DNA of 64,000 nt from Escherichia phage phiEc_1. Of this stretch, positions 795 to 29,679 are shown piece by piece. Position numbers and translations under genes: made by a program. Positions within the stretch are counted from its first letter, which is position 1. Each line of letters opens with the position of its first letter. The notes under the pieces are model-generated. The model was not told where the DNA came from. It searched no databases and saw only the letters and a program-made list of their open reading frames with translations. The stretch is from the sequence record LC768462.1, one strand, 5' to 3'.

Positions 795-950
795 ATGAGG
801 TGATTGTATGCCTTACTCCCTTTTAGCTCGTTGTGATGCGTTTTAGGCCGCTAAATATCGCTTTACAAGCCGTTTTCTATGATGTATCGCGTGCGCCTGC
901 TCTTTTACCTTCCTATAGTGAAAAAGTTTAAAATAATTTGCTTTACCCTA

Positions 951-978
951 TTGCAACCTCATCTGATTAGCGTATACT
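951..978 (+). promoter_or_regulatory. sigma70-type promoter (TTGCAA-N16-TATACT)
   Basis: Hexamers and spacing read directly. Confidence 0.5.
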
Positions 979-1025
979 TCATTTCATCGGGTACGATGTA
1001 AAACATACAAGGCAAGAAATTGCCC

Positions 1026-1039
1026 CGCTCTTTAAAAAT
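1026..1039 (+). promoter_or_regulatory. boxA-like antitermination element
   Basis: CGCTCTTTAAAAAT; matches rrn boxA GCTCTTTAACAA and lambda nutL boxA CGCTCTTAAAAA. Confidence 0.55.
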
Positions 1040-1075
1040 CAGGCTAGAAAGTGAAAATATTCTCAAAAAAGAGTA

Positions 1076-1104
1076 TTGACACCGGAAAAAGCCTGATATA
1101 TAGT
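1076..1104 (+). promoter_or_regulatory. strong sigma70-type promoter (TTGACA-N17-TATAGT)
   Basis: Consensus -35, 17-bp spacer, near-consensus -10. Confidence 0.7.
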
Positions 1105-1134
1105 GAGCATAGTCAGCGATGACTTAAAAAATCC

Positions 1135-1148
1135 CGCTCTTTAAAAAT
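1135..1148 (+). promoter_or_regulatory. boxA-like antitermination element
   Basis: CGCTCTTTAAAAAT, about 25 nt downstream of predicted start site of promoter 1076-1104. Confidence 0.55.
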
Positions 1149-1406
1149 ATGATTTGTCTTACGGGTGGCGGCGACGTCATTACTATAAGGCGCTCAGTTA
1201 ATTGGTAGAATTGATTCCTGATTCATACGTGACGCAGGCGGACAATAAGCAATATCAATAAGCCTTATTTGTTCGATACTTTCAAAAGATTAATGCTTGA
1301 AAGCGCACTAGATTCCCTGAAAGACAAATCAGACTTATCATCTTGCCCTTTCGCATAGATTCACGCGAGATAAGGGAAAGGAATTAAAAGAAGATGATAA
1401 AAAGAG

Positions 1407-1435
1407 TTGCAAACGTGGTTAAAGTAGTCCATACT
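1407..1435 (+). promoter_or_regulatory. sigma70-type promoter (TTGCAA-N17-CATACT), weaker
   Basis: Hexamers and spacing read directly. Confidence 0.35.
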
Positions 1436-1594
1436 AACCACAAGTTAGCAAAACATCGCTAACTAGTTCCCAAATCAACGTATCGCGGGAAAGGTGGCAC
1501 ATAGTGCAGCGATTAGTTCAGGTGTAGGCGGCCTGTTAATGAATCAGTAAGCCTTCAATGTGACAGTGATTAGCAGACACTTTAAAAGGCTAAA

Positions 1595-1608
1595 CGCTCT
1601 TTAACAAT
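1595..1608 (+). promoter_or_regulatory. boxA-like antitermination element
   Basis: CGCTCTTTAACAAT; 12/12 match to rrn boxA core GCTCTTTAACAA. Confidence 0.6.
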
Positions 1609-1708
1609 ATGAGTCATAAGTTAAGCCTCACCGCTTAATCTTCAATCAAATAAAGCTGATTGATATATCCTCCCAATAGCGGGAACGACGAAAAAGATTA
1701 AAAAGCGG

Positions 1709-1737
1709 TTGACAGCGAAAACAACATGATTCATAAT
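1709..1737 (+). promoter_or_regulatory. strong sigma70-type promoter (TTGACA-N17-CATAAT)
   Basis: Consensus -35, 17-bp spacer, 5/6 -10. Confidence 0.65.
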
Positions 1738-1827
1738 GAGCACTCACTAAGCAAATCATCGCTTCAGTGAAAAGCGTAACAACGGCTAACAGTTGCATAG
1801 TGTGAGAAAGCACACTGATAGATTTAC

Positions 1828-1841
1828 CGCTCTTTAATAAT
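1828..1841 (+). promoter_or_regulatory. boxA-like antitermination element
   Basis: CGCTCTTTAATAAT. Confidence 0.5.
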
Positions 1842-2660
1842 TTAAACATTCTCCTATATCGGTTGAATATGCTTGATGATAATAACCATCGGAAAGCATA
1901 CCAGATAAAACGGCGTAAAACTCCCTAAATTATCAGGGTAAACAGTTTTACATTCCCTTACTGGAAACGTCACCATTGATAAACGGATTCATTGAGTACA
2001 CGCAAAGACTTGAGCTAATCGCCCACGGTTAAGGGTAGCGGCGGTCATTGCTAACACGGTGCTACAGTGAAAGAAGTTAATCAGGGTAGGCAATCCCGAC
2101 GAATTAACGCTCAATTGAGAGCGGCGGGGAGTGGTTAAAAAGTGGCAAATTGCTATTTAACAATAAGGTTTAGTGTGAACGTTTACAATGTGAACGGCTT
2201 GAGATTCATCTTATGATGAAAGTACATAGTCGGTTTATGTAGTAAACTTGCCGAAAGATATAAAACGTCGGAACATTAGACGGTCAATGACTCTTTCGCA
2301 ATAGTATCCCGTAGTGGGCGATGACTAGCGATTGAGAGTTGATATAAAAGGATAGGCGAGAGCGAAAGCAAAGTAAACGATATTGCCGACGGTTACAATA
2401 ACGTAACTAATTAGAGTCGGACGCACTGCCTTATTGTGATGATTGATCATCGCTATCAGGTCGGCTTCGTTTATAGCGACTAATTAAAGATACCAGATGA
2501 AACATCACGGATAAGGGGGCGGCAAGGTTAACTCCTGATAAGACCGCCCCGCTTACCTATAACTACTTAACAACGAGTGGTTATAGTTAAGTTAATAGTG
2601 ACTTAAACAAGCTCATAGAGAGCGGGGCAATAGCGCCCTTACAATTGAAAGGTGAATATT

Positions 2661-3582: not shown

Positions 3583-3619
3583 AAGGCGCTATCTTAACGG
3601 GTAGCGCCTTTTCTTTTAT
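3583..3619 (+). terminator. rho-independent terminator
   Basis: Stem AAGGCGCTA / TAGCGCCTT then TTCTTTTAT. Confidence 0.65.
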
Positions 3620-4900: not shown

Positions 4901-4927
4901 GCTTCCGCATAGCCGCCTTTGAGCGGC
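4901..4927 (+). terminator. rho-independent terminator
   Basis: Stem AGCCGC / GCGGCT then TTTTGCGTT. Confidence 0.5.
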
Positions 4928-5047
4928 TTTTTGCGTTGCTGTAAGTGCATTTGCGAGTGTATTTATAGCAACGGTCATGTGTTGCTTTCAGGTTTGCCCC
5001 GGCTACGGCTGGGGCTTTTTTATGTCTACTGTATAGGAATCTATGAA

Positions 5048-5782
5048 ATGAAAGCAATTGTATTATCCTCAATCCTAGCTCTGTCCGTAATGGCATCGCC
5101 TGTTTTTGCTAAAAGTGGAAACAATGGCAATGGCAATGGAGGTTGTGGTGTAGGTCAATCTACCAATGGTTGCGGTATCGGAGATTGGTTTAAAGGTGAA
5201 AAAGGTGATCAGGGAGAGAAAGGCGACACTGGCGCTAATGGCATTGATGGTAAAGATGGCATTGATGGTAAAGATGGCATTGATGGTAAAGATGGCATTG
5301 ATGGTAAAGATGGCATTGATGGAGAACAAGGCGCTCAAGGTGAAAAAGGTGATTCTGGTGCAGATGGTAAGAAAGGCGAAACTGGCCTAACTGGTGCAGC
5401 AGGTTTGAATGGCGTTGACGGATTAAATGGCAAAAACGGTAAAGATGCAGATATGTCTGCCGTTAATGCTAACGCCAAATCCATCAAAGCTCTGGAACAA
5501 TCCACCAATAAACGTTTTGCTTCTTTGCAAAAACAAGTAGACCGTAACCGTGATCATGCCTCTGCTGGTATTTCTGGCGTGGCTGCAATGGCTAACATCC
5601 CGCAAGTAAGTCAAGGATCTGCTTTCTCTGTTGGTGCTGGGGTAGGTGCTTACGATGGTGAATCTGCTCTTGCTATTGGTGTTAGTGCTCGTTTCAATGA
5701 AAACTTAGTAACTAAAGCATCAGTGGCAATGACTTCAGAGAGTGACGCTGTTCTGGGCGCTGGTGTAAGTTACGAGTGGTAA
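5048..5782 (+). CDS. trimeric-autotransporter-like protein: signal peptide, collagen-like Gly-X-Y stalk, YadA-type C-terminal anchor
   Basis: Signal peptide MKAIVLSSILALSVMASPVFA; ~30 Gly-X-Y triplets; C-terminus ...GISGVAAMANIPQV...LAIGVSARFNENLVTKASVA...GAGVSYEW matches YadA anchor pattern. Confidence 0.7.
   Translation: MKAIVLSSILALSVMASPVFAKSGNNGNGNGGCGVGQSTNGCGIGDWFKGEKGDQGEKGDTGANGIDGKDGIDGKDGIDGKDGIDGKDGIDGEQGAQGEKGDSGADGKKGETGLTGAAGLNGVDGLNGKNGKDADMSAVNANAKSIKALEQSTNKRFASLQKQVDRNRDHASAGISGVAAMANIPQVSQGSAFSVGAGVGAYDGESALAIGVSARFNENLVTKASVAMTSESDAVLGAGVSYEW
5240..5323 (+). repeat. perfect 18-bp tandem repeat (GGCATTGATGGTAAAGAT, about 4.6 copies) encoding GIDGKD
   Basis: Identical copies at 5240, 5258, 5276, 5294 plus a partial copy. 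Confidence 0.9.
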
Positions 5783-7471: not shown

Positions 7472-7690
7472 ATGGAAATTAAAGTAGTTGATTATCCTAA
7501 ATATGCAAATGCAGAGGACGTTAAAGGTGGTGATGTTTTCTCTTATGATAAACGTTTCTGGCTGATGCTAGAAGATAAAACCCCTGATGGTTTGTGTAAG
7601 GCTGCTAACTTGAGCAGTGGTTCTGTTGAAGTCTTCGGTCTATCAACCACTGTTATGCCACGACCTGATCTGTGTTTATCCCAAAAGTAA
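7472..7690 (+). CDS. small early protein, paralog family A
   Basis: ORF track; GGDVF...FW...NLSSGSV...MPRPD. Confidence 0.55.
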   Translation: MEIKVVDYPKYANAEDVKGGDVFSYDKRFWLMLEDKTPDGLCKAANLSSGSVEVFGLSTTVMPRPDLCLSQK

Positions 7691-8048
7691 CACCGACTTA
7701 TAGCCCTTGTGTTTATCAGAGGGCTATGTGAGGGTGTTCCTCATTAACTTATTAATTCAGGCATATGCCACACCGCTAGGGAGAGCTTGCTCGAACATCC
7801 GGTGTTAGACTAAAACCTGTTAATTTTCGAAAGACTTTCCGATATGTAGGGGTACGTATTGGTTTGGGATTCAGGAGACTTCCTAGGGGTAGGGAGTCTT
7901 CACCAGTTGGAATAAGAGATAGCTCTAGAACCTGAACTCTTAGGCAGAGAAGGTCGGCAATGAGTACGCGGTCAGGGTTAGTCTACTGACTAGGGCTATC
8001 CCTTATATCAACTGGCAATAATGCCTCCACTAACAAAGAGAGATAGGT

Positions 8049-8189
8049 ATGAAAGTATCAACCAAACGTATGAACCGCCCTGAACGTATGGATGCAGTAG
8101 CTAATGGTGCTCTGAAACTGGAAGGCTTTTGGATTCATGCAATGTCAGCCATCCGTAACAAGCAAGGTAATTGGACGTATAACAGTTAA
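8049..8189 (+). CDS. small protein (46 aa)
   Basis: ATG 8049 to TAA 8187-8189, immediately followed by a terminator; below ORF-track size cutoff. Confidence 0.35.
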   Translation: MKVSTKRMNRPERMDAVANGALKLEGFWIHAMSAIRNKQGNWTYNS

Positions 8190-8197
8190 TAAATAAA

Positions 8198-8227
8198 AGG
8201 CTGCCTTCGGGTGGCCTTTGTTGTTTT
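8198..8227 (+). terminator. rho-independent terminator (UUCG loop)
   Basis: AGGCTGCC-TTCG-GGTGGCCT then TTGTTGTTTT. Confidence 0.7.
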
Positions 8228-8270
8228 AATTAAGGGACAACTCTTACTTAAACTAACAAGAGGTGCTTAT

Positions 8271-8624
8271 ATGAGACGCATGGTTAAAGATTGGGTCACT
8301 AAATCAGGTCTTCGTGCTGTGATTATGCACATGAACGACTCCCATTTTTGTGGATATGTAGAGCTACCAGACAGCTTAAAACATAAAAACTTCACCGGAT
8401 ATAACGGAAAGGAAGAGGTTTGTTATGTAAGTGTTCATGGTGGTGTCACATGGCAAGACACCCTTGAAGAGATGGGTGGTTTAGATACAATCGGATTTGA
8501 TTGTGCCCATGCAGGTGATAAGACACGGTTCAACCCTAACGGGATACCAAGAACAGAAGAGTTCTGCGTTAATGAATGCGAACAATTGGCTGAACAACTA
8601 AGAGATCTAGAATCAAATGTCTAA
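8271..8624 (+). CDS. hypothetical protein
   Basis: ORF track frame; ATG 8271 with AAGAGGTG upstream (track start at 8211 lies inside terminator). Confidence 0.55.
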   Translation: MRRMVKDWVTKSGLRAVIMHMNDSHFCGYVELPDSLKHKNFTGYNGKEEVCYVSVHGGVTWQDTLEEMGGLDTIGFDCAHAGDKTRFNPNGIPRTEEFCVNECEQLAEQLRDLESNV

Positions 8625-8793
8625 GCAAATAATCAAACATACGCAAGCTGGTTACTCTTATGTCAACTCTCCTTGCTGCGGTGCTCGTATTAGTCTGGTT
8701 AAGGAAGAGGTTCGTATTGTTCAGCGTGGCGCTACTGTTGTTCGTTCATGCTGTGTCTGTGGTAATGACATTTTTATCAAAGGTAAAGTATGA
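8617..8793 (+). CDS. small Cys-rich (zinc-ribbon-like) protein
   Basis: 58 codons; CC...CCxC pairs; overlaps neighbours. Confidence 0.4.
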   Translation: MSKQIIKHTQAGYSYVNSPCCGARISLVKEEVRIVQRGATVVRSCCVCGNDIFIKGKV

Positions 8794-9041
8794 AAAACTT
8801 CCAAGCTGCACCAATCACTAAAGTGATCGAAGTTGATGGTATAATGATGACTGTTCCTCTGAACACTCGTTACATTGCAATTGACAAGATGGGTTATGTA
8901 TGGGCTTGGAAGATCAAGCCTAGTTATAACGCATTGTTTGATGAGTTTGTTTGTACTGGAACTTACAGTCCCACATTCTTAGGTTTATTTGGAGAATTTG
9001 ATGGTAAGCATAAAATCATCACACTCCCTGCTTGTGCTTGA
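8790..9041 (+). CDS. hypothetical protein
   Basis: ORF track; ATGA overlap. Confidence 0.5.
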   Translation: MKNFQAAPITKVIEVDGIMMTVPLNTRYIAIDKMGYVWAWKIKPSYNALFDEFVCTGTYSPTFLGLFGEFDGKHKIITLPACA

Positions 9042-9048
9042 GGTTAAT

Positions 9049-9282
9049 ATGAAAGGAAAAGAGGTTAAATATTTTGGCGAAGTTGTTAAAGTGGACAGCT
9101 CTATAAGATATTTAGCAACTGATAGCAACGGCGAGGTATATGGGTTTACCCATAAGCCAGAAATTCGTGGGTATGCTTGGGCACTTCCTTATGGGACTCC
9201 GTTCGAGACGGGAGGAGCTGTTTATCTTAACGATAATGGACCTCTGTTTGCATGGAAAACATCTCTCGTTGAGGTGGTGTAA
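9049..9282 (+). CDS. hypothetical protein
   Basis: ORF track frame; ATG 9049 after GAGG. Confidence 0.5.
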   Translation: MKGKEVKYFGEVVKVDSSIRYLATDSNGEVYGFTHKPEIRGYAWALPYGTPFETGGAVYLNDNGPLFAWKTSLVEVV

Positions 9283-9284
9283 TT

Positions 9285-9449
9285 ATGTTCAAGTGGTTTA
9301 AACGTCTATTCCATCTGCATGATTGGGAGACAATAAAAGAAATTCGTTTACACATATATAATGAGATCGGTCAAATAGAAGACACAGGTACTCGTTATAT
9401 ACTTCGATGTAAAACATGTGGTCATATCACCAAACGAGATATGATCTAA
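9285..9449 (+). CDS. small protein with C-terminal CxxC
   Basis: GAGGTGG SD then ATG 9285; 54 codons. Confidence 0.4.
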   Translation: MFKWFKRLFHLHDWETIKEIRLHIYNEIGQIEDTGTRYILRCKTCGHITKRDMI

Positions 9450-9456
9450 ATCTTAT

Positions 9457-9532
9457 GCGCTCTTAGCTCAATGGATAGAGCAGTAGCCTTCTAAGCTATT
9501 GGTTACAGGTTCGAGTCCTGTAGGGCGCACCA
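9457..9532 (+). tRNA. tRNA-Arg(UCU): tRNA-Arg (anticodon UCU, reads AGA), encoded CCA
   Basis: Cloverleaf folded by hand: 7-bp acceptor stem, D stem GCTC/GAGC, anticodon loop CTTCTAA, T arm ACAGG-TTCGAGT-CCTGT, discriminator A, CCA. Confidence 0.9.
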
Positions 9533-9551
9533 AATCTAATAGGAGGTAATT

Positions 9552-9851
9552 ATGAGTTGGGGTGGTGTAATATCCTTAATCTGTATCTTCCTTGTCTGCA
9601 TAGCCCTTACAGGCTGCGTACAGAGCCGTCCTGATGGATGGTGTGCAGTAGCAGTGGAAGGTGTTTGTGTTTCTCGCTGGCATAAGGGTGAGAAGATTCC
9701 TTCTGGTGAAATTGATATGCGATGGAACGGAGCAACCTGTTCTAATGCTAACCCTTCTATCAACGAAGAGAAGTCTACACCGGATAATGTTGTTATTGAT
9801 ACAGCATTGTGGTGTGGTGGCTCTACGATTACAACCGGTAAGGAGTGGTGA
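9552..9851 (+). CDS. lipoprotein (Cys-rich)
   Basis: AGGAGG SD; signal peptide with lipobox LTGC (LICIFLVCIALTGC). Confidence 0.65.
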   Translation: MSWGGVISLICIFLVCIALTGCVQSRPDGWCAVAVEGVCVSRWHKGEKIPSGEIDMRWNGATCSNANPSINEEKSTPDNVVIDTALWCGGSTITTGKEW

Positions 9852-9852
9852 T

Positions 9853-10050
9853 ATGAATTACACATCTACAAAGGTGTTAATTGATTCGATTAATAACTCC
9901 TCAGAAACTGTACAGGAGCGTTTAATACAAGATGTTAGCAATGACATTAAGTTCTTTGTTAAGAGCCGCCTGTTAGGTTCTAAGGCTTATTACAGAGCTA
10001 AAGCAGAGCTTACAAAGAGGATGTTTCTTTTACATGGTTTGGTATATTAA
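9853..10050 (+). CDS. hypothetical protein
   Basis: ATG 9853 with AAGGAG upstream; same frame as track ORF 9661..10050 but non-overlapping start. Confidence 0.5.
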   Translation: MNYTSTKVLIDSINNSSETVQERLIQDVSNDIKFFVKSRLLGSKAYYRAKAELTKRMFLLHGLVY

Positions 10051-10059
10051 GGAACTTAT

Positions 10060-10281
10060 ATGAAACTAGACTCTAAGCAGTCACTTAAAACTGTTGAATT
10101 GTCCACGCTGCCAAACGGAAGTATTTTTGGTCATGATAAACACTTCTGGATTAAAACAGACATCATAGACGATGGATATATCACCTGTGTCAATCTTTGG
10201 AACGGCTCAGTGGATGGCTATCGCCCTAGTGCAAAAGTAGTCCCTCAGCCTGATGCAAAGGCTACAGGTTTAGTTTACTAA
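10060..10281 (+). CDS. small early protein, paralog family A
   Basis: ORF track; PNGSIF...FW...NLWNGSV...VPQPD. Confidence 0.55.
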   Translation: MKLDSKQSLKTVELSTLPNGSIFGHDKHFWIKTDIIDDGYITCVNLWNGSVDGYRPSAKVVPQPDAKATGLVY

Positions 10282-10290
10282 GGAGCCTGT

Positions 10291-10464
10291 ATGAGTTGTT
10301 TTGGTGGCGGTGAAGTAGATGACGATGATGACATGGAATCCAACGGTACATGTCCTGATTGTGGATGTGAGACGTTTGATGGGGTGTCTGTTTATCCTGC
10401 CTGTAGTTACTCACCAGTGATCTGTAAAACATGTGGTGATCAGCCGTGTGACCAATCTTGTTAA
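10291..10464 (+). CDS. small acidic Cys-rich (zinc-ribbon-like) protein
   Basis: AAGGAG SD; CPDCGC...CKTCGD. Confidence 0.4.
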   Translation: MSCFGGGEVDDDDDMESNGTCPDCGCETFDGVSVYPACSYSPVICKTCGDQPCDQSC

Positions 10465-10473
10465 GAGAATCTT

Positions 10474-10605
10474 ATGACTGAAGAATTTTTAGAGTGGTTT
10501 GGGAACACCTTCAAAGATTATCTATTCTCTCCAGAAGACTTTGAAGAACTGAAAACCTACACTTGGTTGGCTTGGAGAGATAGCCGACGAAAGTTGAACA
10601 AGTAA
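10474..10605 (+). CDS. small protein (43 aa)
   Basis: Short ORF between neighbours; weak support. Confidence 0.25.
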   Translation: MTEEFLEWFGNTFKDYLFSPEDFEELKTYTWLAWRDSRRKLNK

Positions 10606-10616
10606 GAGACGATTAA

Positions 10617-10874
10617 ATGGGTTTACTTGATATTTTTATCTCAGTTTACTTTATTGGAGTATTCCTTTCTGTCTTAGTGATGAAACTGCTATACAAGAAA
10701 GGTCTACTAAAAGGGGTCATTACAACAGGGTCTACCAGCTCTGAACCTGATGAGATGATGGTTGTTCTCTTAATTGTGTTGTGGCCTATCTCAATACTGT
10801 CAGGAGTTTTTTATCCAATAGGTTGGCTTCTGTTTAAAGCATATGATGCAGTTATGCATTTTATCTTTAAGTAA
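10617..10874 (+). CDS. membrane protein (two TM helices)
   Basis: ORF track; two hydrophobic segments. Confidence 0.55.
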   Translation: MGLLDIFISVYFIGVFLSVLVMKLLYKKGLLKGVITTGSTSSEPDEMMVVLLIVLWPISILSGVFYPIGWLLFKAYDAVMHFIFK

Positions 10875-11164
10875 TATCGTGAAGGATTCTTACGAGAGTC
10901 CTTTGAGATAGGACTTCAGATCTCCTATCAAACTAACATTCATGTAACTAGCCCATAAGGGCGTTACCCTTTAATAACCCAGCCCACTAAGGGGGCGGGA
11001 GTTTAGTGCTGGATTAGCATAACGCTTATTCCTACAAAGGCAACCGATTGTTAGATCTTACATGCAATATTAACTAATAGGATAAGGGAGGATTCGTCCC
11101 CTCCCCCTATTTTATTGAATCTTTATCTAAGCAAGTCTTATATAAACGTTTAATTGGAGGATGT

Positions 11165-11476
11165 ATGAAAGCACGAAGAACTATATGGACTCCGATGCAG
11201 ATTGAAAATCTTCGGAGACTGATCAAAGAGTACTCGGTTCAAGAAGTTGCTCAGATTATGAATGTAACGGAGAATGCTGTTAACACAGCTTGCACTAAAT
11301 TCGGAATATCAAGAGCTTCAATCCGAGTCAAGTGGTCTAAAGAAGAAGATCAGTTCCTTATCCGTAATGCCGGGTTTATGTCTATTCAGAGAATGGCTGA
11401 CATGCTTGGTAGAAGTTATGCTGCTGTACAGAACAGGGCATGTATGCACCTTAATATTAGCCTCAAACTTAAATAG
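11165..11476 (+). CDS. DNA-binding protein with two tandem HTH-like repeats
   Basis: Internal repeat W-[ST]-x-E-x-[LI]...S...A...G-[RI]-S. Confidence 0.5.
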   Translation: MKARRTIWTPMQIENLRRLIKEYSVQEVAQIMNVTENAVNTACTKFGISRASIRVKWSKEEDQFLIRNAGFMSIQRMADMLGRSYAAVQNRACMHLNISLKLK

Positions 11477-11484
11477 GAATCAAT

Positions 11485-11733
11485 ATGAAGATTACTCACA
11501 AGAAAGAAGAAGTGTCCACGGTTGATATCAACTCTCTTCCTAGTGGAGCAGTATTTAAATTCCCTGAGAGTTCTACTCTCTATGTCAAAGGGTCTGTGTC
11601 TGAAAGTCCTAATGTAACCGTTAACTCCGATCGAGCAATCACTCTTCGTCTATCTGATGGTAACGTAACAGCCCCTTCTATCTGGTGCCGAGTTGTCCCT
11701 GTATCGGCAGAACTTTTGGTGGATAATACATAA
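11485..11733 (+). CDS. small early protein, paralog family A
   Basis: ORF track; family pattern. Confidence 0.55.
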   Translation: MKITHKKEEVSTVDINSLPSGAVFKFPESSTLYVKGSVSESPNVTVNSDRAITLRLSDGNVTAPSIWCRVVPVSAELLVDNT

Positions 11734-11978
11734 TGAAAATCATCCCAAAGAAAAAGGATAATACGGTTCGATTGGAAACAATCATTCCCGGAAACCCCTT
11801 CGTAGTTCAGCACGGAAGTGCCTCTCCTCAGTATTATATGAGGGTTGAAAATGCTTCTGGTAACATCCGTATAGCCAGTGGCTGGGTTCCTGTAGTAAAT
11901 CTATCCACAGGTGCACTGTCTGTTAAAGGTCTTGATGATCAGGTAGAAATGATTCGTATGTCTGTGGTTCAGGAGTGA
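11733..11978 (+). CDS. small early protein, paralog family A
   Basis: ORF track; family pattern. Confidence 0.55.
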   Translation: MKIIPKKKDNTVRLETIIPGNPFVVQHGSASPQYYMRVENASGNIRIASGWVPVVNLSTGALSVKGLDDQVEMIRMSVVQE

Positions 11979-12226
11979 GAATGAGCACGATACATATTAA
12001 GGTTCACAACAAAGAAAAAAAGAAACTCTTTGTTAAAGATCTGTCAACCGCTGACATCTTTACTTTAAAAGATGATGACAGTCAGGTCATTTATTTGATG
12101 ATGCCTCTATCTGGTGGATATCGCAGAGCAGTTAATTTAGGTACAGGCGAACCTCGTCCTGTTTCTGACACTCTTGAAGTTGGCGAGAAGTTTGCCAAAG
12201 CAGAGATCATCTTAACTCCGATGTAA
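11975..12226 (+). CDS. small early protein, paralog family A
   Basis: ORF track; family pattern. Confidence 0.55.
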   Translation: MRMSTIHIKVHNKEKKKLFVKDLSTADIFTLKDDDSQVIYLMMPLSGGYRRAVNLGTGEPRPVSDTLEVGEKFAKAEIILTPM

Positions 12227-12459
12227 GGGTAAGTAAGTGAAAACAAAAGCATATTCTTATGATGATATGATCAACCAGAAAGGCTTCGGTCAACGCCAGC
12301 CTGACGGTTCAATTATCTGGTTTGTAAACGGACAGAAAAAGGTAGCTAAATAAGCCCTCTTCTCTCCTCCTTTTAGTACTATGACGCCTCTCTGTGGGCG
12401 GCCCAATTTGCGTAGGGAATTCCCTCTACGCAGCCATGACTTTTTAAGGAATTTCCCCT

Positions 12460-12693
12460 ATGTCTAAAGTAAGTGCAATTGATGCAATCCGTCAACCGTT
12501 CCAGTTCCAATCCAAATCAACCCAAACCTTCAGCGAACCTAAGCAAATTCGCTTGGGTGGCACAGAGAAAACTGTGTTCGATCTGGCTAAAAACAAGAGC
12601 GTTACCGTAGTTGATGGTGGCACTCTGGTTAACGTTTCTCATCGCATCCGCACTGGCAAAACTGCCAAAGATCGTGCTAAGAAAGGCGAGTAA
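12460..12693 (+). CDS. hypothetical protein
   Basis: ORF track. Confidence 0.5.
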   Translation: MSKVSAIDAIRQPFQFQSKSTQTFSEPKQIRLGGTEKTVFDLAKNKSVTVVDGGTLVNVSHRIRTGKTAKDRAKKGE

Positions 12694-12908
12694 TGATAAC
12701 ACTTGTGTCGATCGTTTACAGAATACACTACCGTCTAGACAAAGGTAAGACCTATAAGTGCAAGAGTAAGACAGGCAATAGATGCTCTGTAGAAAACAAC
12801 TCTGGTCAATGGGTGGATGTACCTTGTTGTTGGTTCAGGAAAGACTTGACTAACAAAGAAATTGACGAAATCCTTAGTGATGATTTTGTAAAATCAAGTG
12901 ATTTTTAG
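12693..12908 (+). CDS. hypothetical Cys-containing protein
   Basis: ORF track; TAATG overlap. Confidence 0.5.
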   Translation: MITLVSIVYRIHYRLDKGKTYKCKSKTGNRCSVENNSGQWVDVPCCWFRKDLTNKEIDEILSDDFVKSSDF

Positions 12909-13099
12909 TTGTAGTAACGCCTATAGCCTTCTTCGGAGGGCTATGTGAGTTATTCTGACTCAACTAACCTAATCTTAATATATTTCCCGTATGGGGCCGA
13001 TGCTAGGGAGAGGAACATTCCTCGAACATCCGTCGGATAGATATTTTAAGAGCAGGTTATCCACAGATATTGGGTAATATCTTTTTGTATTTAAAGCTT

Positions 13100-13126
13100 G
13101 ACTCTTTTCGGAGAGTCCTTTTTTAA
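13100..13126 (+). terminator. rho-independent terminator (UUCG loop)
   Basis: GACTCTT-TTCG-GAGAGTC then CTTTTTT. Confidence 0.6.
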
Positions 13127-13143
13127 ATTCAACGAGAGGAAAT

Positions 13144-27136: not shown

Positions 27137-27670
27137 ATGAGTTTACTAGGAAGTATTGAACTGCATGATGTAATTGACAATGGCTATCTGGATGCGGAGC
27201 ATAAGTATGTTAACGCTGCTAGTGTGGATATCCGTATTGGTGATACTATCCTTGTTGAAGAACAGGCTGATGGCATCGTTGATATTGATGCGAAAGAGAA
27301 TCTTCAGTGGAAGGAAGTAAAGATTCCTGAAGAGGGTTTGGTTATCACTCCGGGTCAGTTCTTCTTGGCTCACTCTATGGAGGAGTTTAATCTTCCAGAT
27401 AACATCTCAAGTCTGTTTGTTCTGCGTTCGTCTATGGCTCGTTGTGGTTTGAACCACCTTCACGCCGGTTGGGCAGATGCAGGATTTAATAGTAGTAAGC
27501 TGACATTTGAATTCCATAACGTAACCAAGCACCACAGCTTACGAGTTCGTGCTGGTATGCGTGTTGGTCAGATGGTTATGTTTGAGCACTCTCATGCAGG
27601 GGAACATTCCTACGCAGTGAAGGGTCGTTATAATAACTCTGAAGGTGTGGTTGCATCTAAAGGTGTGTAA
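27137..27670 (+). CDS. dcd: dCTP deaminase
   Basis: VDIRIGD..., LRSSMARCGL, AGWADAGFN, GMRVGQMVMFEH align with E. coli Dcd motifs. Confidence 0.8.
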   Translation: MSLLGSIELHDVIDNGYLDAEHKYVNAASVDIRIGDTILVEEQADGIVDIDAKENLQWKEVKIPEEGLVITPGQFFLAHSMEEFNLPDNISSLFVLRSSMARCGLNHLHAGWADAGFNSSKLTFEFHNVTKHHSLRVRAGMRVGQMVMFEHSHAGEHSYAVKGRYNNSEGVVASKGV

Positions 27671-27868
27671 ATGAAAAAGTGGATTGTTCGTGTACATGAT
27701 AACACGACTGGAGAGTTAGTAGCTGTAGATTTTGTTAAGACTCGAGAACACGCACGTAGGGTCAAAAATCAATACAAGTCTACTTTTAGACTTAACAAGG
27801 TTACAATTGGAAAAGCTATTGTGAATAGCGAAGGTGCTTTTTTTGCCAACAGTAAGGTTTATTATTAA
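27671..27868 (+). CDS. small protein, paralog family B
   Basis: ORF track; tandem with two similar ORFs ending in ...KV-x-YY. Confidence 0.5.
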   Translation: MKKWIVRVHDNTTGELVAVDFVKTREHARRVKNQYKSTFRLNKVTIGKAIVNSEGAFFANSKVYY

Positions 27869-28077
27869 TGAGACCGATCACCATGAGACAATTTTGGTTA
27901 GCAAAGATTAAGTGGGCATCAGGTGGCATGACTATGACTGCACTACCCACTCGCCAACAAGCTCGAGATTTTAAAAAGACTATGCTTACTGGTGACGTGG
28001 TTAATAGTATCAGTATCCATAAGGCCAAGGAGTATTCTTCTGGTCGTGTTTATATCAGCGGAAAGGTACATTACTAA
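27868..28077 (+). CDS. small protein, paralog family B
   Basis: ORF track; ATGA overlap. Confidence 0.5.
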   Translation: MRPITMRQFWLAKIKWASGGMTMTALPTRQQARDFKKTMLTGDVVNSISIHKAKEYSSGRVYISGKVHY

Positions 28078-28286
28078 TGAAAAAGATGTGGGCTATTCAT
28101 GTTGTTTGGGATCTTGAGCAACACATGAGAAAAGATAACATCAAATTGTTTGATACTCGCAAAGAGGCTCGTATTGCTAAGAAACAGTTGAAGACTCTGG
28201 GCACAATAGTAAAAAGCGCTGACATACATCGCTGGTATGAAGACCCTAACACTGGTTCTTTTATGTCTAAAGTAATTTACTACTGA
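28077..28286 (+). CDS. small protein, paralog family B
   Basis: ORF track; ATGA overlap. Confidence 0.5.
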   Translation: MKKMWAIHVVWDLEQHMRKDNIKLFDTRKEARIAKKQLKTLGTIVKSADIHRWYEDPNTGSFMSKVIYY

Positions 28287-28311
28287 TTGGTAGTAGATAT
28301 GGTAACTCTCA

Positions 28312-28320
28312 AATGTATAT
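28312..28320 (+). promoter_or_regulatory. candidate phage-sigma promoter element (AAATGTATA)
   Basis: One-mismatch copy of recurrent TAATGTATA, 39 bp upstream of ATG 28359. Confidence 0.35.
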
Positions 28321-28358
28321 AGAGTACAATAAGAATTTGTATTTTACAGGAGAGAGTT

Positions 28359-28688
28359 ATGTTAGATTTGAGTAAAGTGGCCCCGCCCACTGAAGAGATT
28401 ACAAAATCCAAGGTGATGCAACAGTTTTATCATCGTGATATGCTTGGTCGCTTTATCAAGAATCGTGATGTTGTTGCTTGGTCTATTGGTAATCAGGGAT
28501 ATCTGTTGAAGGTTCTTCAGGTTACAGGTTCAACTGCTAAGCGAGTTAAGGTGTATGACCCTGAAATGGGGCGTTCTAAGTCAGTAGACCCACAGAACTG
28601 CATCGTAATTACCCAGCAGGTAATGGATAATATTGCACGTAACGTTGCTAACTCAGTTGAACTTGATGGAGAAAACCCAAATGCATAA
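28359..28688 (+). CDS. hypothetical protein
   Basis: ORF track. Confidence 0.55.
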   Translation: MLDLSKVAPPTEEITKSKVMQQFYHRDMLGRFIKNRDVVAWSIGNQGYLLKVLQVTGSTAKRVKVYDPEMGRSKSVDPQNCIVITQQVMDNIARNVANSVELDGENPNA

Positions 28689-29244
28689 GAATGTCTTTGA
28701 TTTACCTGAGATTGGTCGTGACAGCTATAGCATGTTAGACCGGTCTGATCTTTCAATCTCTCGCCTTGAAACAATGCAAGGCATGATTAGTGCAAACAGC
28801 CTAGAACACATCCTGAGCTGCTTACAAGCTAACATGGAACTCTTGCATATCAAAGCTAAAAACTACCACTGGAACGTCTCTGGTGCAGGATTTCAGGGTG
28901 TTCATGGTATGTTTGATGAGCTGGAAGATTACGCACGACAGGTAGGAGATCATATTGCTGAACGTATGCGTTACCACTGCGTTAAAGTGGACGCTACAGC
29001 AGCTAACTATCTTTCTCATGCTTGGTTCTCAGAGGGTAATGCTGACCTAGATATGGACGGTATGCTCTCTGATATGTGCATGACCTTGATGTGTATTATT
29101 GAGAAGATGGATGAGTTTGATGGTGATTTAGCCACCTACCCTGTTGATCAGAGTATGCTTCAAGAAATTAATGAAGGTCTTGGCAAGTATTGCTACTTCG
29201 TCAAGAGCAACATGTCCCATTCAAGTGGTGACGTGTCTTACTAA
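28681..29244 (+). CDS. dps: Dps-family ferritin-like protein
   Basis: KAKNYHWNVSGAGFQGVHGMFDE...D.IAER and C-terminal KYCYFVKSN align with E. coli Dps; ATG 28681 in track frame. Confidence 0.8.
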   Translation: MHKNVFDLPEIGRDSYSMLDRSDLSISRLETMQGMISANSLEHILSCLQANMELLHIKAKNYHWNVSGAGFQGVHGMFDELEDYARQVGDHIAERMRYHCVKVDATAANYLSHAWFSEGNADLDMDGMLSDMCMTLMCIIEKMDEFDGDLATYPVDQSMLQEINEGLGKYCYFVKSNMSHSSGDVSY

Positions 29245-29304
29245 AACCTCCGCCCTGTCTCCTAACCCGAGGTGGGGCGAACTTATTTATAAGGATATAG
29301 ATAT

Positions 29305-29484
29305 ATGTTATCAGCAATCGTATGGGGTATTTGGGCTATCTTTATTGGTGGTGGTATTTATTGGGCTTCTGGTAAGCTTATTGAAGAAACCCCTGATAAG
29401 AAAGGTGAGATTCAAACAGCATCAACTATCATGGTTATCGTAGCTGTTGTTATCCCATTCCTGCTTCACCTCCTGACTGCATAA
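29305..29484 (+). CDS. small membrane protein (2 TM), paralog of 29494..29679
   Basis: AAGGA SD; hydrophobic-charged-hydrophobic pattern; preferred over track ORF 29144..29443. Confidence 0.45.
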   Translation: MLSAIVWGIWAIFIGGGIYWASGKLIEETPDKKGEIQTASTIMVIVAVVIPFLLHLLTA

Positions 29485-29493
29485 GGATTTGAT

Positions 29494-29679
29494 ATGATTT
29501 CACTGATTGTGTGGGCCGTGTGGTCGTTAATAGTTGGTACTGTTATATATAAAGCTCGAAATTTAGCAATTAAAGAAAACCCAGCAGAAGAGGATGTTAA
29601 AGCTATCAAGCTAGGTAGTGTTGTTCTGGTACATTTTGCTATAACACTACCTCTTGTTATTATTCTTTGTATGCTATAA
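29494..29679 (+). CDS. small membrane protein (2 TM)
   Basis: ORF track; similar to 29305..29484. Confidence 0.5.
   Translation: MISLIVWAVWSLIVGTVIYKARNLAIKENPAEEDVKAIKLGSVVLVHFAITLPLVIILCML

What the first reader, a model, noticed from the sequence alone, without database searches (positions are those of the whole stretch)
7699..13032. Conserved structured elements in early intergenic regions (tetraloop hairpin followed by TGAG, and a GCTAGGGAGAG...CTCGAACATCCG block)
Within about 15 nt after three stop codons there are stable hairpins, each followed by [G/T]TGAG and lacking a U-tract: 7699-7727 (ATAGCCC...GGGCTAT), 12923-12944 (ATAGCCTTC-TTCG-GAGGGCTAT) and 10882-10903 (AAGGATTCT-TACG-AGAGTCCTT). 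Two of them are followed 45-55 nt later by a near-identical block GCTAGGGAGAG-(short hairpin)-CTCGAACATCCG (7775-7801 and 13002-13032). These are not canonical intrinsic terminators, so they may be RNA processing or stability sites, protein binding sites, or parts of small RNAs.
Basis: seen in the sequence. Interest (0 to 1): 0.45.

Follow-up and report, generated by a model that had tools for sequence, protein, structure and literature searches.

The report
Portable structured RNA module in coliphages
The flagged hairpins belong to a conserved multi-hairpin RNA element shared by several unrelated families of E. coli and Salmonella phages, and one copy carries a tail almost perfectly antisense to the leader of the host's anaerobic ribonucleotide reductase (nrdD) mRNA, so it may be a phage small RNA aimed at host nucleotide metabolism.

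Summary
The window is a phiEco32-like Kuravirus. The hairpins and the GCTAGGGAGAG...CTCGAACATCCG block are parts of one roughly 125-135 nt sense-strand RNA element present twice (7687-7811 and 12910-13042). It consists of hairpin H1, hairpin H2 (whose 5' arm is the 'TGAG'), an AU-rich linker, a small hairpin H3, and hairpin H4, whose conserved internal loop is the 'block'. All five helices show compensatory changes across 29 distinct sequences (93.7% of cells paired, against 35-46% when partners are slid). About 80 G-U cells place the fold on the + strand. Homologues occur in Kuravirus, Suseptimavirus, Moazamivirus (7-11), an uncultured CVT22-like phage and N4-like Gamaleyavirus. No Rfam family matches. 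The third hairpin (10882) belongs to a different intergenic module that is also conserved. In the 12.9-kb copy the linker pairs with the stretch after H4, forming a three-way junction. That stretch (13041-13077) is 35/37 identical to the antisense of the E. coli nrdD leader next to its Shine-Dalgarno sequence. The similarity follows the host, and an intrinsic terminator comes after it. Best reading (about 0.4): a portable non-coding RNA scaffold, which in this copy forms a 3'-UTR-type small RNA against nrdD. Rivals are processing or stability sites, antitermination, and DnaA or other DNA-level roles. No expression data were available.

The parts
7687..7811 (+). Copy 1 (IG1 type) of the four-hairpin RNA element, from the GTAAC that holds the stop codon of ORF 7472-7690 to just past H4
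   Evidence: Covariance model R1 scores 101 bits, E = 4e-25. Alignments A2 and A4.
7700..7727 (+). H1 of copy 1: AUAGCCCUU / AGGGCUAU, with a 10-13 nt loop
   Evidence: Fold z = -4.3. Helix 1 has an invariant base (AUAGC/GCUAU) and an upper part that changes C-G to U-G and U-A to A-U.
7729..7743 (+). H2 of copy 1: UGAGG-GUGUU-CCUCA.
   Evidence: Pair 47-63 is seen as U-A, G-C and C-G.
7744..7759 (+). AU-rich linker of copy 1
7760..7769 (+). H3 of copy 1: GGC-AUAU-GCC
   Evidence: Two of its three pairs flip G-C to C-G between lineages. The RUAU loop is conserved.
7770..7805 (+). H4 of copy 1. Outer stem ACACCG/CGGUGU, internal loop CUAGGGA (7776-7782) / GAACAUC (7793-7799), inner stem GAG/CUC.
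   Evidence: Outer-stem pairs are seen as C-G, U-A, A-U and G-C. The loop-closing non-canonical position is A-G 17 times, C-A 10 times, A-A twice, and never C-G.
7806..8048 (+). Rest of IG1: further conserved hairpins (7842-7859 AUAUGUA-GGGG-UACGUAU; 7874-7901 GGAGACUUCCUA-GGGG-UAGGGAGUCUUC) and the leader of the 46-aa ORF 8049-8189
   Evidence: Alignment with compensatory changes. Fold z = -4.6. The AUGUAGGGGUA motif is also present in L046 and IME11.
12910..13042 (+). Copy 2 (IG3 type) of the element: H1 12923-12944, H2 12946-12962, H3 12986-12995, H4 12997-13036
   Evidence: R1 scores 124.5 bits, E = 3e-31. Fold.
12965..12985 (+). 5' strand of the long-range helix P1 (the linker: UAACCU, UCUUAA, AUAUUU)
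   Evidence: It pairs with 13039-13059 in the minimum-energy folds of all six IG3-type lineages, although the sequences differ. It is also seen in IME11.
13039..13059 (+). 3' strand of P1 (AGAUAU, UUAAGA, AGGUUA). It closes a three-way junction with H3 and H4.
13041..13077 (+). Stretch antisense to the host nrdD mRNA leader (positions -10 to -46 from the AUG). It contains GGTTATCCACA, which is invariant in the Kuravirus, Suseptimavirus and 7-11-group copies (altered in Gamaleyavirus), and the DnaA-box consensus TTATCCACA at 13057-13065.
   Evidence: 35/37 identity to the treC-nrdD intergenic region of 5325 of 5426 E. coli genomes. None of 300 shuffles reaches the score. Duplex energy is -59 kcal/mol against -24 +/- 3.7 for shuffles.
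13065..13082 (+). Small AU hairpin AGAUAUU-GGGU-AAUAUCU
13100..13125 (+). Intrinsic terminator (GACUCUU-UUCG-GAGAGUC plus U6) that ends IG3. It is conserved in Suseptimavirus and 7-11.
10882..10929 (+). Front end of a different module (IG2): hairpin 10882-10903, UGAG, then hairpin GAUAGGA...UCCUAUC at 10907-10929
   Evidence: Not matched by R1. Conserved in phiEco32, Suseptimavirus, 7-11 and IME11, with an A-U to G-C compensatory change.
11048..11105 (+). Distal part of IG2: conserved TTGTTAGATCTTACATGC (11048-11065) and the intrinsic terminator at 11086-11105

Best explanation
SHOWN. The flagged pieces are parts of a previously uncatalogued structured RNA element that folds on the + (sense, early-transcript) strand. 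It consists of two tandem hairpins (H1, H2) directly after a stop codon, an AU-rich linker, and a core made of a tiny hairpin H3 abutting hairpin H4, which has a sequence-conserved internal loop. The window has two paralogous copies. Homologues occur in at least four otherwise unrelated groups of virulent enterobacterial phages.

INFERRED, and my commitment. The element is a portable non-coding RNA scaffold carried in, or cut out of, a polycistronic phage transcript. H1 and H2 are very stable and often UNCG-capped. They keep ribosomes and 3' exonucleases away from the upstream cistron. The AU-rich linker is the likely site of endonuclease entry. H3-H4 is a specific fold that binds or resists a conserved factor and stabilises the RNA downstream.

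In the 12.9-kb (IG3-type) copy the linker pairs with the stretch after H4 (helix P1), giving a three-way junction. That stretch plus the next roughly 16 nt is antisense to the host nrdD leader right next to its Shine-Dalgarno sequence, and the RNA ends at an intrinsic terminator. This is the layout of a 3'-UTR-type small RNA. I propose that it base-pairs with nrdDG mRNA, starting from the exposed UCCAC(AG) and displacing P1. That would block ribosome entry and create an RNase III substrate, lowering the host's anaerobic ribonucleotide reductase. The 7.7-kb (IG1-type) copy uses the same scaffold in the leader of the small ORF 8049-8189 and has no nrdD complementarity.

The confidence of 0.4 refers to this mechanism. 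That this is a real, selected sense-strand RNA structure I put at about 0.9.
For: Structure. Five helices were counted on 29 distinct sequences. 93.7% of cells are paired, against 35-46% when partners are slid. 11 of 32 pairs have changes on both sides, with at least 2 in every helix. No shuffle out of 500 reaches the percentage paired or the covariation score. RNAalifold independently predicts the same helices. About 80 G-U cells against 2 A-C cells place the fold on the + strand. The non-canonical closing position varies A-G, C-A and A-A, and is never C-G.

Distribution. The element is found in 98-103 Kuravirus and Suseptimavirus records, in 7-11, SE131 and pSal-SNUABM-01, in the CVT22-like contig L046 at 64.9 bits with H1, H2 and the outer stem entirely re-sequenced but still paired, and in Gamaleyavirus IME11 at 37.9 bits. 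IG3 is the only non-coding stretch with nucleotide similarity between the window and 30 kb of 7-11.

P1 and the three-way junction appear in the minimum-energy folds of all IG3-type lineages although the sequences differ.

nrdD. Identity is 35/37 (Kuravirus) and 32/34 (Suseptimavirus) to E. coli, at a single locus in 5325 of 5426 genomes. L024 is 19/19 and L036 26/29 to Salmonella. A host-type-specific single-base difference is followed: ATTTTAAG in E. coli and its phages, ATTT[G/A]TAAG in Salmonella, Citrobacter and L036. IG1-type copies, L046 and whole IG1 and IG2 show no such similarity. IME11 keeps 27/31 identity with the E. coli-type 3' flank although its DnaA box is broken (TTATC-ACA).

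The nrdD promoter (NrdR boxes) lies 165-220 nt upstream of the ATG, so the target lies in the mRNA leader (probe sequence in PMC12176259, located). In Gamaleyavirus the element lies downstream of the replication-gene cluster. By analogy with N4 (my own knowledge, not checked here) that cluster is read by a phage RNA polymerase, so a mechanism tied to host RNA polymerase is less likely.
Against: There are no transcript data. RNA ends, abundance, and whether a discrete small RNA exists are all unknown. Much of the antisense stretch is sequestered in P1, and only about 5 nt (UCCAC) are predicted free. The nrdD transcription start was inferred, not verified. The scaffold also occurs without nrdD complementarity (IG1 type and L046), so the role of its conserved H3-H4 core is unexplained. 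The invariant 11-mer is also a perfect DnaA box. The similarity could be a relic of captured host DNA. Why a phage would lower the host's anaerobic RNR is not obvious. Complementarity of the Salmonella phages is shorter (17-26 nt) and does not follow the Salmonella-specific 3' flank.
Confidence: 0.4

Rival explanations
1. The element is purely a cis-acting intercistronic processing and stability element. RNase E cuts the AU-rich linker, or RNase III cuts H4. H1-H2 then protect the 3' end of the upstream mRNA and H3-H4 protect the 5' end of the downstream RNA, as with the RNase III sites between T7 early genes. No trans target is involved.
For: The element sits directly after stop codons in a long early operon that has no strong internal sigma-70 promoters. 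H1 is often a cUUCGg or UNCG hairpin. The layout of hairpin, hairpin, AU-rich ACUAAC linker, then hairpins is shared by the unrelated IG2 module. The upstream genes vary while the junction to the element is fixed.
Against: RNase E sites and protective hairpins do not need 13 invariant loop nucleotides kept across phage families. H4 has only 6-7 plus 3-5 Watson-Crick pairs, which is short for RNase III. In IG3 a processed 5' end would be followed by a terminator rather than a gene. This reading does not explain the host-tracking nrdD similarity.
Confidence: 0.2
2. The element is a cis-acting antitermination RNA, put-like (binding host RNA polymerase) or nut-like (binding a phage protein plus Nus factors). 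It would let early transcription read through the intrinsic terminators at 8196-8219 and 13100-13117.
For: There are two paralogous copies, each upstream of an intrinsic terminator, like putL/putR or nutL/nutR. The early operon needs read-through. The 7-11 transcription paper states that an antitermination strategy 'remains to be defined' (PMC8948821). HK022 put is also a two-stem RNA with non-canonical G-A and C-A pairs (PMC9378689).
Against: Strong terminators lie upstream of the first copy (3583-3610 and 4996-5015), and also in 7-11. L046 has no evident terminator downstream. Kuraviruses already carry four boxA-like sites next to their early promoters. In Gamaleyavirus the element follows the replication-gene cluster, which in N4 (my own knowledge, not checked here) is transcribed by a phage RNA polymerase. 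No sequence similarity to put or nut was found, and there is no Rfam hit.
Confidence: 0.12
3. The function is at the DNA level. GGTTATCCACA would be a DnaA binding site, serving as an origin or replication cue, a roadblock, or a titration site. The conserved intergenic blocks would mainly serve as homology anchors for exchanging early gene cassettes.
For: TTATCCACA is the high-affinity DnaA box consensus, and it is invariant in Kuravirus, Suseptimavirus and the 7-11 group. The nrdD leader carries two such boxes. At least six different upstream genes join the element at the same (T)AAGTAAC junction.
Against: The compensatory changes and the roughly 80 G-U pairs are strand-specific, which points to RNA. 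Loop lengths within the inverted repeats vary from 4 to 13 nt, which does not fit a dimeric operator. The similarity to nrdD extends 19-37 nt, well beyond the 9-bp box, and follows host-specific flanks. IME11 keeps the similarity although its box is broken. The cumulative GC skew shows no turn near 13 kb.
Confidence: 0.12
4. These are ordinary, unselected hairpins or weak terminators, and the repeats are a recent duplication with no function.
For: Motif counts alone are not above chance when mismatches are allowed.
Against: The element is conserved across phage families with compensatory changes in every helix. Both paralogues are retained in two genera.
Confidence: 0.02

Closest known systems
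3'-UTR-derived and trans-encoded base-pairing small RNAs of enterobacteria (for example CpxQ, SroC, DapZ) and prophage small RNAs such as DicF
   Same: The IG3 copy lies at the 3' end of a transcription unit and ends in an intrinsic terminator with a U tail. Upstream of the terminator it carries a conserved stretch complementary to the translation-initiation region of a host mRNA.
   Different: The complementarity is 19-37 nt instead of a short seed, and it is partly masked by an intramolecular helix. The RNA is encoded by virulent phages. It is preceded by a conserved three-way-junction scaffold that is not known from these small RNAs. Dependence on Hfq or ProQ is untested.
RNase III processing sites in the early region of phage T7 (R0.3, R0.5, R1, R1.1, R1.3)
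   Same: Both are repeated, related, irregular hairpins with an internal loop, placed between cistrons of a long early transcript of a virulent coliphage. Both leave a stable hairpin at the end of the upstream message.
   Different: Here there are four hairpins plus a long-range helix instead of one roughly 50-nt hairpin. The helices are much shorter than two turns. The element is shared between unrelated phage families. No cleavage has been shown.
HK022 put RNAs and lambda nut sites
   Same: Both involve two related copies per genome, just after a stop codon and upstream of terminators. Put is a two-stem fold with non-canonical purine pairs that is read by a conserved host machine.
   Different: There is no sequence or Rfam similarity. 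The copies lie 6-12 kb from the promoters, after other terminators. The element is also present in N4-like phages at a place that is probably not read by host RNA polymerase.
cUUCGg / UNCG hairpins of T4-type phages (Tuerk et al. 1988, as cited in PMC8948821)
   Same: H1 of the 12.9-kb copy is C(UUCG)G, and H1 of IG2 and of the 7-11 group is U(UACG)A. They are intergenic and very stable.
   Different: Those are single hairpins. Here H1 is only the first module of a larger conserved fold.
PeSL cassettes of T4-type phages (promoter plus stem-loop repeats flanking variable ORFs; from my own memory of Arbiol et al. 2010, not checked here)
   Same: Both are conserved intergenic repeats that bound variable early gene cassettes. 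A sharp junction between variable genes and the conserved element was seen.
   Different: No conserved promoter is part of this element. Selection acts on RNA pairing, not only on DNA homology.

Membership tests
Intrinsic (Rho-independent) terminator | A G+C-rich hairpin immediately followed by a U tract | tested here: not met
   H1 of both copies and the IG2 hairpin are followed by GUGAG or UGAG, which starts the next hairpin. The scan calls only 8196-8219, 11086-11105 and 13100-13117.
Any Rfam 15 family | A covariance-model match at the gathering score, or at least a suggestive E-value | tested here: not met
   At the gathering threshold only the tRNA-Arg is found. With E up to 10, nothing overlaps the elements.
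Base-pairing small RNA (3'-UTR type) | Extended complementarity to a target mRNA near its ribosome binding site, greater than chance | tested here: met
   35/37 identity to the antisense of the E. coli nrdD leader at -10 to -46. None of 300 shuffles reaches the score. Duplex energy is -59 kcal/mol against -24 +/- 3.7 for shuffles.
Base-pairing small RNA (3'-UTR type) | Complementarity conserved, and co-varying, between the regulator and the target of the cognate host | tested here: inconclusive
   All IG3-type copies keep at least 17-19 nt. E. coli phages follow the E. coli flank and L036 follows the Salmonella/Citrobacter single-base difference. However, 7-11 and pSal do not follow the Salmonella 3' flank.
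Base-pairing small RNA (3'-UTR type) | An intrinsic terminator with a U tail at the 3' end | tested here: met
   13100-13125, conserved in Suseptimavirus and 7-11.
Base-pairing small RNA (3'-UTR type) | A discrete stable transcript, chaperone (Hfq/ProQ) binding, and a regulatory effect on the target | not testable with these tools
   No RNA-seq, Northern or reporter data are accessible.
T7-type RNase III processing site | About two helical turns of mostly paired RNA with an internal loop | tested here: inconclusive
   H4 has 6-7 plus 3-5 Watson-Crick pairs around a 7x7 loop, about 17-19 layers if the loop stacks. This is shorter than typical substrates.
T7-type RNase III processing site | Cleavage by RNase III | not testable with these tools
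   This needs rnc mutants or in vitro cleavage.
HK022 put RNA | A put-like sequence or fold of about 70 nt (two stems, a triple helix, a junction G-A pair) recognised by the RNA polymerase beta' zinc-binding domain | tested here: not met
   There is no similarity in sequence or in an Rfam search. The architecture is different: four hairpins and a three-way junction. Put features were taken from PMC9378689.
HK022 put RNA / lambda nut | Suppression of downstream terminators | not testable with these tools
   The positional argument goes against it: terminators lie upstream of the element, and N4-like phages also carry it.
Hammerhead ribozyme | Core CUGANGA ... GAAA in a three-way junction, with invariant G5, A6 and G12 | tested here: not met
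   The loop CUAGGGA/GAACAUC resembles the core only in part. The positions equivalent to A9 and G12 vary naturally (C-A variant), the junction is two-way, and there is no Rfam hit.
Kink-turn | A three-nucleotide bulge followed by tandem sheared G-A/A-G, with the opposite strand continuing directly into the C helix | tested here: not met
   The loop is symmetric, 7x7. The A-G next to the inner stem is replaced by C-A or A-A. In IME11 the purine part is replaced by a GGG/CCC stem, leaving a 3x3 CUA/AUC loop.
DnaA box | The 9-mer TTATNCACA | tested here: met
   TTATCCACA lies at 13057-13065 and is invariant in six aligned phages. In Gamaleyavirus, however, it is broken (TTATC-ACA) while the flanking similarity to nrdD is kept. 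Binding was not tested.

The most novel reading that the evidence does not exclude
Several unrelated families of virulent enterobacterial phages (phiEco32-like, 7-11-like, G7C/N4-like) share by horizontal transfer a non-coding RNA. Its conserved three-way-junction scaffold presents a partly masked, toehold-like antisense sequence of 19-37 nt against the leader of the host's anaerobic ribonucleotide reductase mRNA (nrdDG). The antisense sequence follows the host's own sequence. This would be a phage-borne, host-directed small RNA that reprogrammes dNTP supply under gut-like anaerobic conditions. The same scaffold (IG1 type, L046) and the sister module IG2 would carry other, still unidentified targeting tails.
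Probability: 0.35. Interest if true: 0.82.

Novelty: new variant of a known kind. Interest (0 to 1): 0.7.

Why it matters
Very few regulatory RNAs of strictly virulent phages are known, and almost none has a defined host target. This element is an RNA fold supported by covariation. It is absent from Rfam and from the literature I could search, and it is shared by phage families with quite different transcription strategies. One version makes a concrete, cheap-to-test prediction: pairing with the nrdD leader next to its ribosome binding site. If the prediction holds, it shows that phages trade host-takeover RNAs as mobile modules, and it links phage infection to anaerobic nucleotide metabolism in the gut. 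It would also give a natural example of a masked antisense sequence on a structured scaffold. If it does not hold, the element is still a new conserved phage RNA motif. It marks the boundaries of variable early gene cassettes, and it bears on the unexplained read-through and processing of the long early operons of phiEco32- and 7-11-like phages, several of which are used in phage therapy collections.

Tried and rejected
1. Rfam at the gathering score and at E up to 10 gave nothing at the elements.
2. I looked for a third copy in the window. The covariance model R1 finds only two, and the 10882 hairpin is not a member.
3. Hammerhead-like and kink-turn readings of the H4 loop were rejected because of natural variation at the key positions and the loop symmetry.
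4. Stop-codon read-through or recoding stimulated by H1 was rejected. In IG3 a second stop follows at once, and the extension is not conserved.
5. An internal sigma-70 promoter in the linker (CTGACT-18-TATATT at 12955-12984, a 9/12 match) is not conserved in Suseptimavirus or 7-11, and its -35 element lies in H2, which shows compensatory changes.
6. A tertiary pairing between the H2 loop (GAUGUUC or GGUGUUC) and the H4 3' loop (GAACAUC) fits the IG1 type only. The IG3 type has an A-C mismatch and there is no covariation.
7. An attenuator-like alternative pairing of the H2 5' arm with the 5' arm of the terminator rests on one shared A/G difference between Kuravirus and Suseptimavirus, and 7-11 does not keep it. 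I judged this too weak.
8. A replication origin at IG3 is not supported. There is no turn in the GC skew and only a single DnaA box.
9. Looser DNA patterns in IMG/VR gave only chance hits in coding regions.
10. Citrobacter phage CVT22 itself gave only a weak 16-bit hit with different loops. I did not count it as a member.
11. BLAST of whole IG1 and whole IG2 against E. coli genomes gave no match, so no host target can be proposed for them.
12. The phiEco32 papers of Savalia 2008 and Pavlova 2012 are not held. Literature searches for phiEco32, Kuravirus or G7C with intergenic, non-coding or RNA-seq terms found no prior description.

Full report
CONTEXT. The window is a phiEco32-like podophage of genus Kuravirus. 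The best match is PQ561398 at 98.6% identity. The finding lies in the early region, which consists of dozens of small + strand ORFs. These ORFs are fed by four strong sigma-70-type promoters at about 950-1740, and no comparably strong + strand promoter follows. Three unusually long intergenic regions interrupt the small genes: IG1 at 7691-8048, IG2 at 10875-11164 and IG3 at 12909-13143. IG2 and IG3 each end in an intrinsic terminator, at 11086 and 13100. The next terminator after IG1 (8196) follows the small ORF 8049-8189.

OBSERVATION. The hairpins start 8-15 nt after stop codons and lack U tracts. The two 'blocks' are exact repeats found only at these two places.

ANATOMY. Folding and alignment show that the pieces form one element.
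- H1 is AUAGCC.../...GGCUAU.
- One or two nucleotides later comes H2, whose 5' arm is the 'UGAG'. It reads UGAGG/CCUCA in IG1 and UGAGUUA/UGACUCA in IG3.
- An AU-rich linker follows.
- H3 is a 3-bp hairpin with loop RUAU.
- Directly abutting H3 is H4. The 'block' is H4's 7x7 internal loop (CUAGGGA / GAACAUC) together with its inner stem GAG/CUC. An outer stem encloses it and differs between the copies (ACACCG/CGGUGU against CCGAUG/CGUCGG).

COVARIATION. I collected 29 distinct copies from related phages and metagenomes and aligned them by fixed anchors, with N padding in the loops.
- On this alignment 93.7% of cells form standard pairs, against 35-46% when partners are slid by 1-3 columns.
- 11 of 32 pairs change on both sides, with at least two such pairs in each of the five helices.
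- No shuffle out of 500 reaches the percentage paired or the covariation score.
- RNAalifold predicts the same helices on its own, with 27 pairs of which 10 are compensatory.
- Many of these cells reflect a few old splits (IG1 type, IG3 type, the 7-11 group), so the number of independent events is smaller than the cell counts. The later, more distant members (below) add independent events.
- About 80 cells are G-U pairs, which would be A-C mismatches on the other strand. The fold therefore belongs to the + strand, which is the transcribed sense strand.
- The position that closes the inner stem varies A-G (17), C-A (10) and A-A (2), and is never C-G. It switched repeatedly within both paralogues and within the 7-11 group. 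This is the pattern of a sheared-type non-canonical pair. That is an inference from base-pair isostericity, which I recall and did not test.

DISTRIBUTION.
- The element is present twice in every Kuravirus and Suseptimavirus examined (98-103 records).
- It is present once in Salmonella phages 7-11, SE131 and pSal-SNUABM-01. In 30 kb of 7-11 it is the only non-coding stretch with nucleotide similarity to the window.
- A contig binned with a Flavobacterium MAG encodes proteins closest to Citrobacter phage CVT22 and Klebsiella and Erwinia podophages. It carries a copy scoring 64.9 bits. In that copy H1, H2 and the outer stem have entirely different sequences yet still pair, while the H3 loop, the loop strands CUAGGGC and AAACAUC, and GAG/CUC are kept.
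- N4-like Gamaleyavirus phages (IME11 and relatives) carry a copy scoring 37.9 bits inside a 2-kb gene-free region after the replication genes. In it the purine half of the loop is replaced by a GGG/CCC stem, so a 3x3 CUA/AUC loop remains.
- The sequence-specific core is therefore H3 plus the CUA/AUC part of H4. H1 and H2 are structural.
- Rfam has no matching family. The literature I could search does not describe the element.

THE THIRD HAIRPIN. The covariance model does not find the hairpin at 10882. It is the front end of a different module, IG2. IG2 is conserved in phiEco32, Suseptimavirus, 7-11 and IME11. It shows an A-U to G-C compensatory change in this hairpin, a second hairpin after UGAG, an ACUAAC linker, a conserved 18-mer (11048-11065) and a conserved terminator. 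IME11 joins an IG2-type H1-H2 front end to an IG3-type core.

JUNCTION WITH UPSTREAM GENES. At least six different upstream genes join the IG1-type element, and several join the IG3-type element. In each case the junction falls at (T)AAGTAAC or GAGTGAC, which supplies the stop codon. The elements are fixed points between which early gene cassettes are swapped, and translation is kept out of H1.

THE IG3 COPY IS LARGER THAN THE FLAGGED PIECES.
- The linker (12965-12985) pairs with the stretch after H4 (13039-13059). This long-range helix, P1, closes a three-way junction with H3 and H4. It appears in the minimum-energy fold of every IG3-type lineage, although linker and partner differ in sequence.
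- After P1 come 5 unpaired nucleotides (UCCAC), a small AU hairpin and the terminator.
- The stretch GGTTATCCACA is invariant in six aligned phages and contains the DnaA-box consensus.

A HOST MATCH.
- Window 13041-13077 is 35/37 identical to one site in 5325 of 5426 complete E. coli genomes. The site is the treC-nrdD intergenic region, 10-46 nt upstream of the nrdD start codon, and the match is on the strand opposite to nrdD.
- The phage transcript is therefore antisense to the nrdD leader, ending right next to its GGAG.
- The NrdR boxes of the nrdD promoter lie 165-220 nt upstream of the ATG. I located the probe sequence from PMC12176259. The site is therefore inside the mRNA leader. This is inferred, and the transcription start was not verified.
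- Whole IG1 and whole IG2 give no E. coli match at E up to 10. IG1-type copies and L046 score like shuffles.
- I fetched the same region from Salmonella and Citrobacter rodentium. All IG3-type copies resemble it well beyond the 9-bp box: Suseptimavirus 32/34 to E. coli, L024 19/19, L036 26/29, 7-11 17/18 and pSal about 24/29. No shuffle out of 300 reaches these scores, with one exception: for 7-11 against Citrobacter, 1 of 300 shuffles did.
- E. coli phages carry the E. coli form (ATTTTAAG...CAGAWATTGGG). L036 carries the extra base of Salmonella and Citrobacter (ATTTATAAG). 7-11 and pSal do not follow the Salmonella 3' flank.
- IME11 keeps 27/31 identity, including the E. coli-type flank CACAGAAAATG, although a one-base deletion destroys the DnaA box. 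That argues for pairing rather than DnaA binding.
- The predicted duplex energy of Kuravirus RNA with the E. coli leader is -59 kcal/mol, against -24 +/- 3.7 for shuffles.

MECHANISM.
Shown: a selected sense-strand RNA fold; its spread across phage families; P1; the nrdD complementarity; the terminator.
Inferred: the element is a portable non-coding RNA scaffold.
- H1 and H2 insulate and protect the upstream cistron.
- The linker is where an endonuclease or an alternative pairing acts.
- H3-H4 is a specific fold that binds or resists a conserved factor.
- In IG3 the scaffold plus antisense tail plus terminator make a 3'-UTR-type small RNA. It would pair with nrdDG mRNA from the exposed UCCAC(AG), displace P1, block the ribosome and create an RNase III substrate.
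- I give this about 0.4.

Rival readings:
- Purely cis-acting processing or stability (0.2). This does not explain the invariant loops or the nrdD match.
- Antitermination (0.12). It is attractive because the 7-11 paper says an antitermination strategy is still undefined. It is weakened by three things: terminators upstream of the element, the lack of a downstream terminator in L046, and the presence of the element in N4-like phages downstream of genes that, in N4, are read by a phage polymerase (the last point is from my own knowledge of N4).
- DNA-level roles (0.12).

What remains unexplained: the role of the H3-H4 core in copies without nrdD complementarity, and why lowering, or possibly otherwise modulating, anaerobic RNR would help the phage.

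VERDICT. This is a new, covariation-supported phage RNA family with a concrete, testable host-target hypothesis.

Noticed in passing
window 950-1850 (+ strand): There are four strong sigma-70-type promoters: TTGCAA-16-TATACT at 951, TTGACA-17-TATAGT at 1076, TTGCAA at about 1407, and TTGACA-17-CATAAT at 1709. Each is followed by a small hairpin and a boxA-like CGCTCTTTAA(A/C/T)AA, at 1026, 1135, 1595 and 1828. The rrn boxA is TGCTCTTTAACAA. The four-fold repeat is conserved in phiEco32, ECBP2, SU7 and Bas88, and is absent from the 7-11 segment I examined (60-89.9 kb, the early side). This suggests Nus-factor antitermination of early transcripts.
   Followed up: partly
window 5190-5450 (inside ORF 4919-5782): A 9-nt and 18-nt periodic tandem repeat (GATGGCATTGATGGTAAA...) encodes a G-x-x collagen-like repeat in the homologue of phi32_119, which is annotated 'agglutinating adhesin'.
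   Followed up: no
window 10875-11164; L015 20950-21188 (- strand); L052 1290-1480: IG2 is a second conserved non-coding module. It has a hairpin-UGAG-hairpin front end, variable middle hairpins, the conserved stretch TTGTTAGRTCTTACATG, and a conserved terminator (GGGAGGATTCGTCCCCTCCC). It is shared by Kuravirus, Suseptimavirus, 7-11 and Gamaleyavirus. No host target was found by BLAST.
   Followed up: partly
L053 5592-7676 (IME11 record 27591-29675): N4-like Gamaleyavirus phages have a roughly 2-kb region without annotated genes. It holds, in tandem, an IG3-like element, an IG2-like element, a copy of the IG1 hairpin AUGUAGGGGUAUGUA, and two tRNA-like T-arm sequences (GGTTCGAGTCC and GGTTCGAATCC).
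   Followed up: partly
L015 22135-22845 (- strand), Salmonella phage 7-11: A 711-nt stretch without annotated genes lies downstream of gp135, the homologue of phi32_112. It contains tRNA-like 3' halves (GGTTCGAATCC...CCACC and GGTTCGACTCC...GCTCCA) that ARAGORN does not call. It ends in ACTAACAAAGAGAGAT before gp134, the same ribosome-binding context as window 8024-8045.
   Followed up: partly
L046 1978-5668: In the CVT22-like contig at least six small early ORFs end in the same acidic tail (D/E)EENE (for example VVDEENE, LLEEENE, LIDEENE). This is an unexplained shared C-terminal tag.
   Followed up: no
L049 1501-1592; L050 3440-3560; L051 3440-3560 (host nrdD leaders): The nrdD leader of E. 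coli, Salmonella and C. rodentium carries two perfect DnaA boxes (TTATCCACA on the antisense strand) about 60-80 nt apart. The stretch AAGAACAGGTTATCCACA next to the ribosome binding site is identical in all three genera, so the host sequence is itself under constraint.
   Followed up: partly
window 7776, 7885, 7991: The motif (C)UAGGG recurs three times in IG1: in the H4 loop, in the loop of the 12-bp hairpin at 7874-7901, and near 7991. It is conserved in relatives, and its meaning is unknown.
   Followed up: no
L015 19370-19393 (- strand): 7-11 has a further H1-like hairpin (UAAGCCUUCU-UUCG-AGAGGGCUUA) right after the stop of gp126, here followed by a U-rich tract. The same hairpin type therefore serves as a front end and as a likely terminator.
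   Followed up: no
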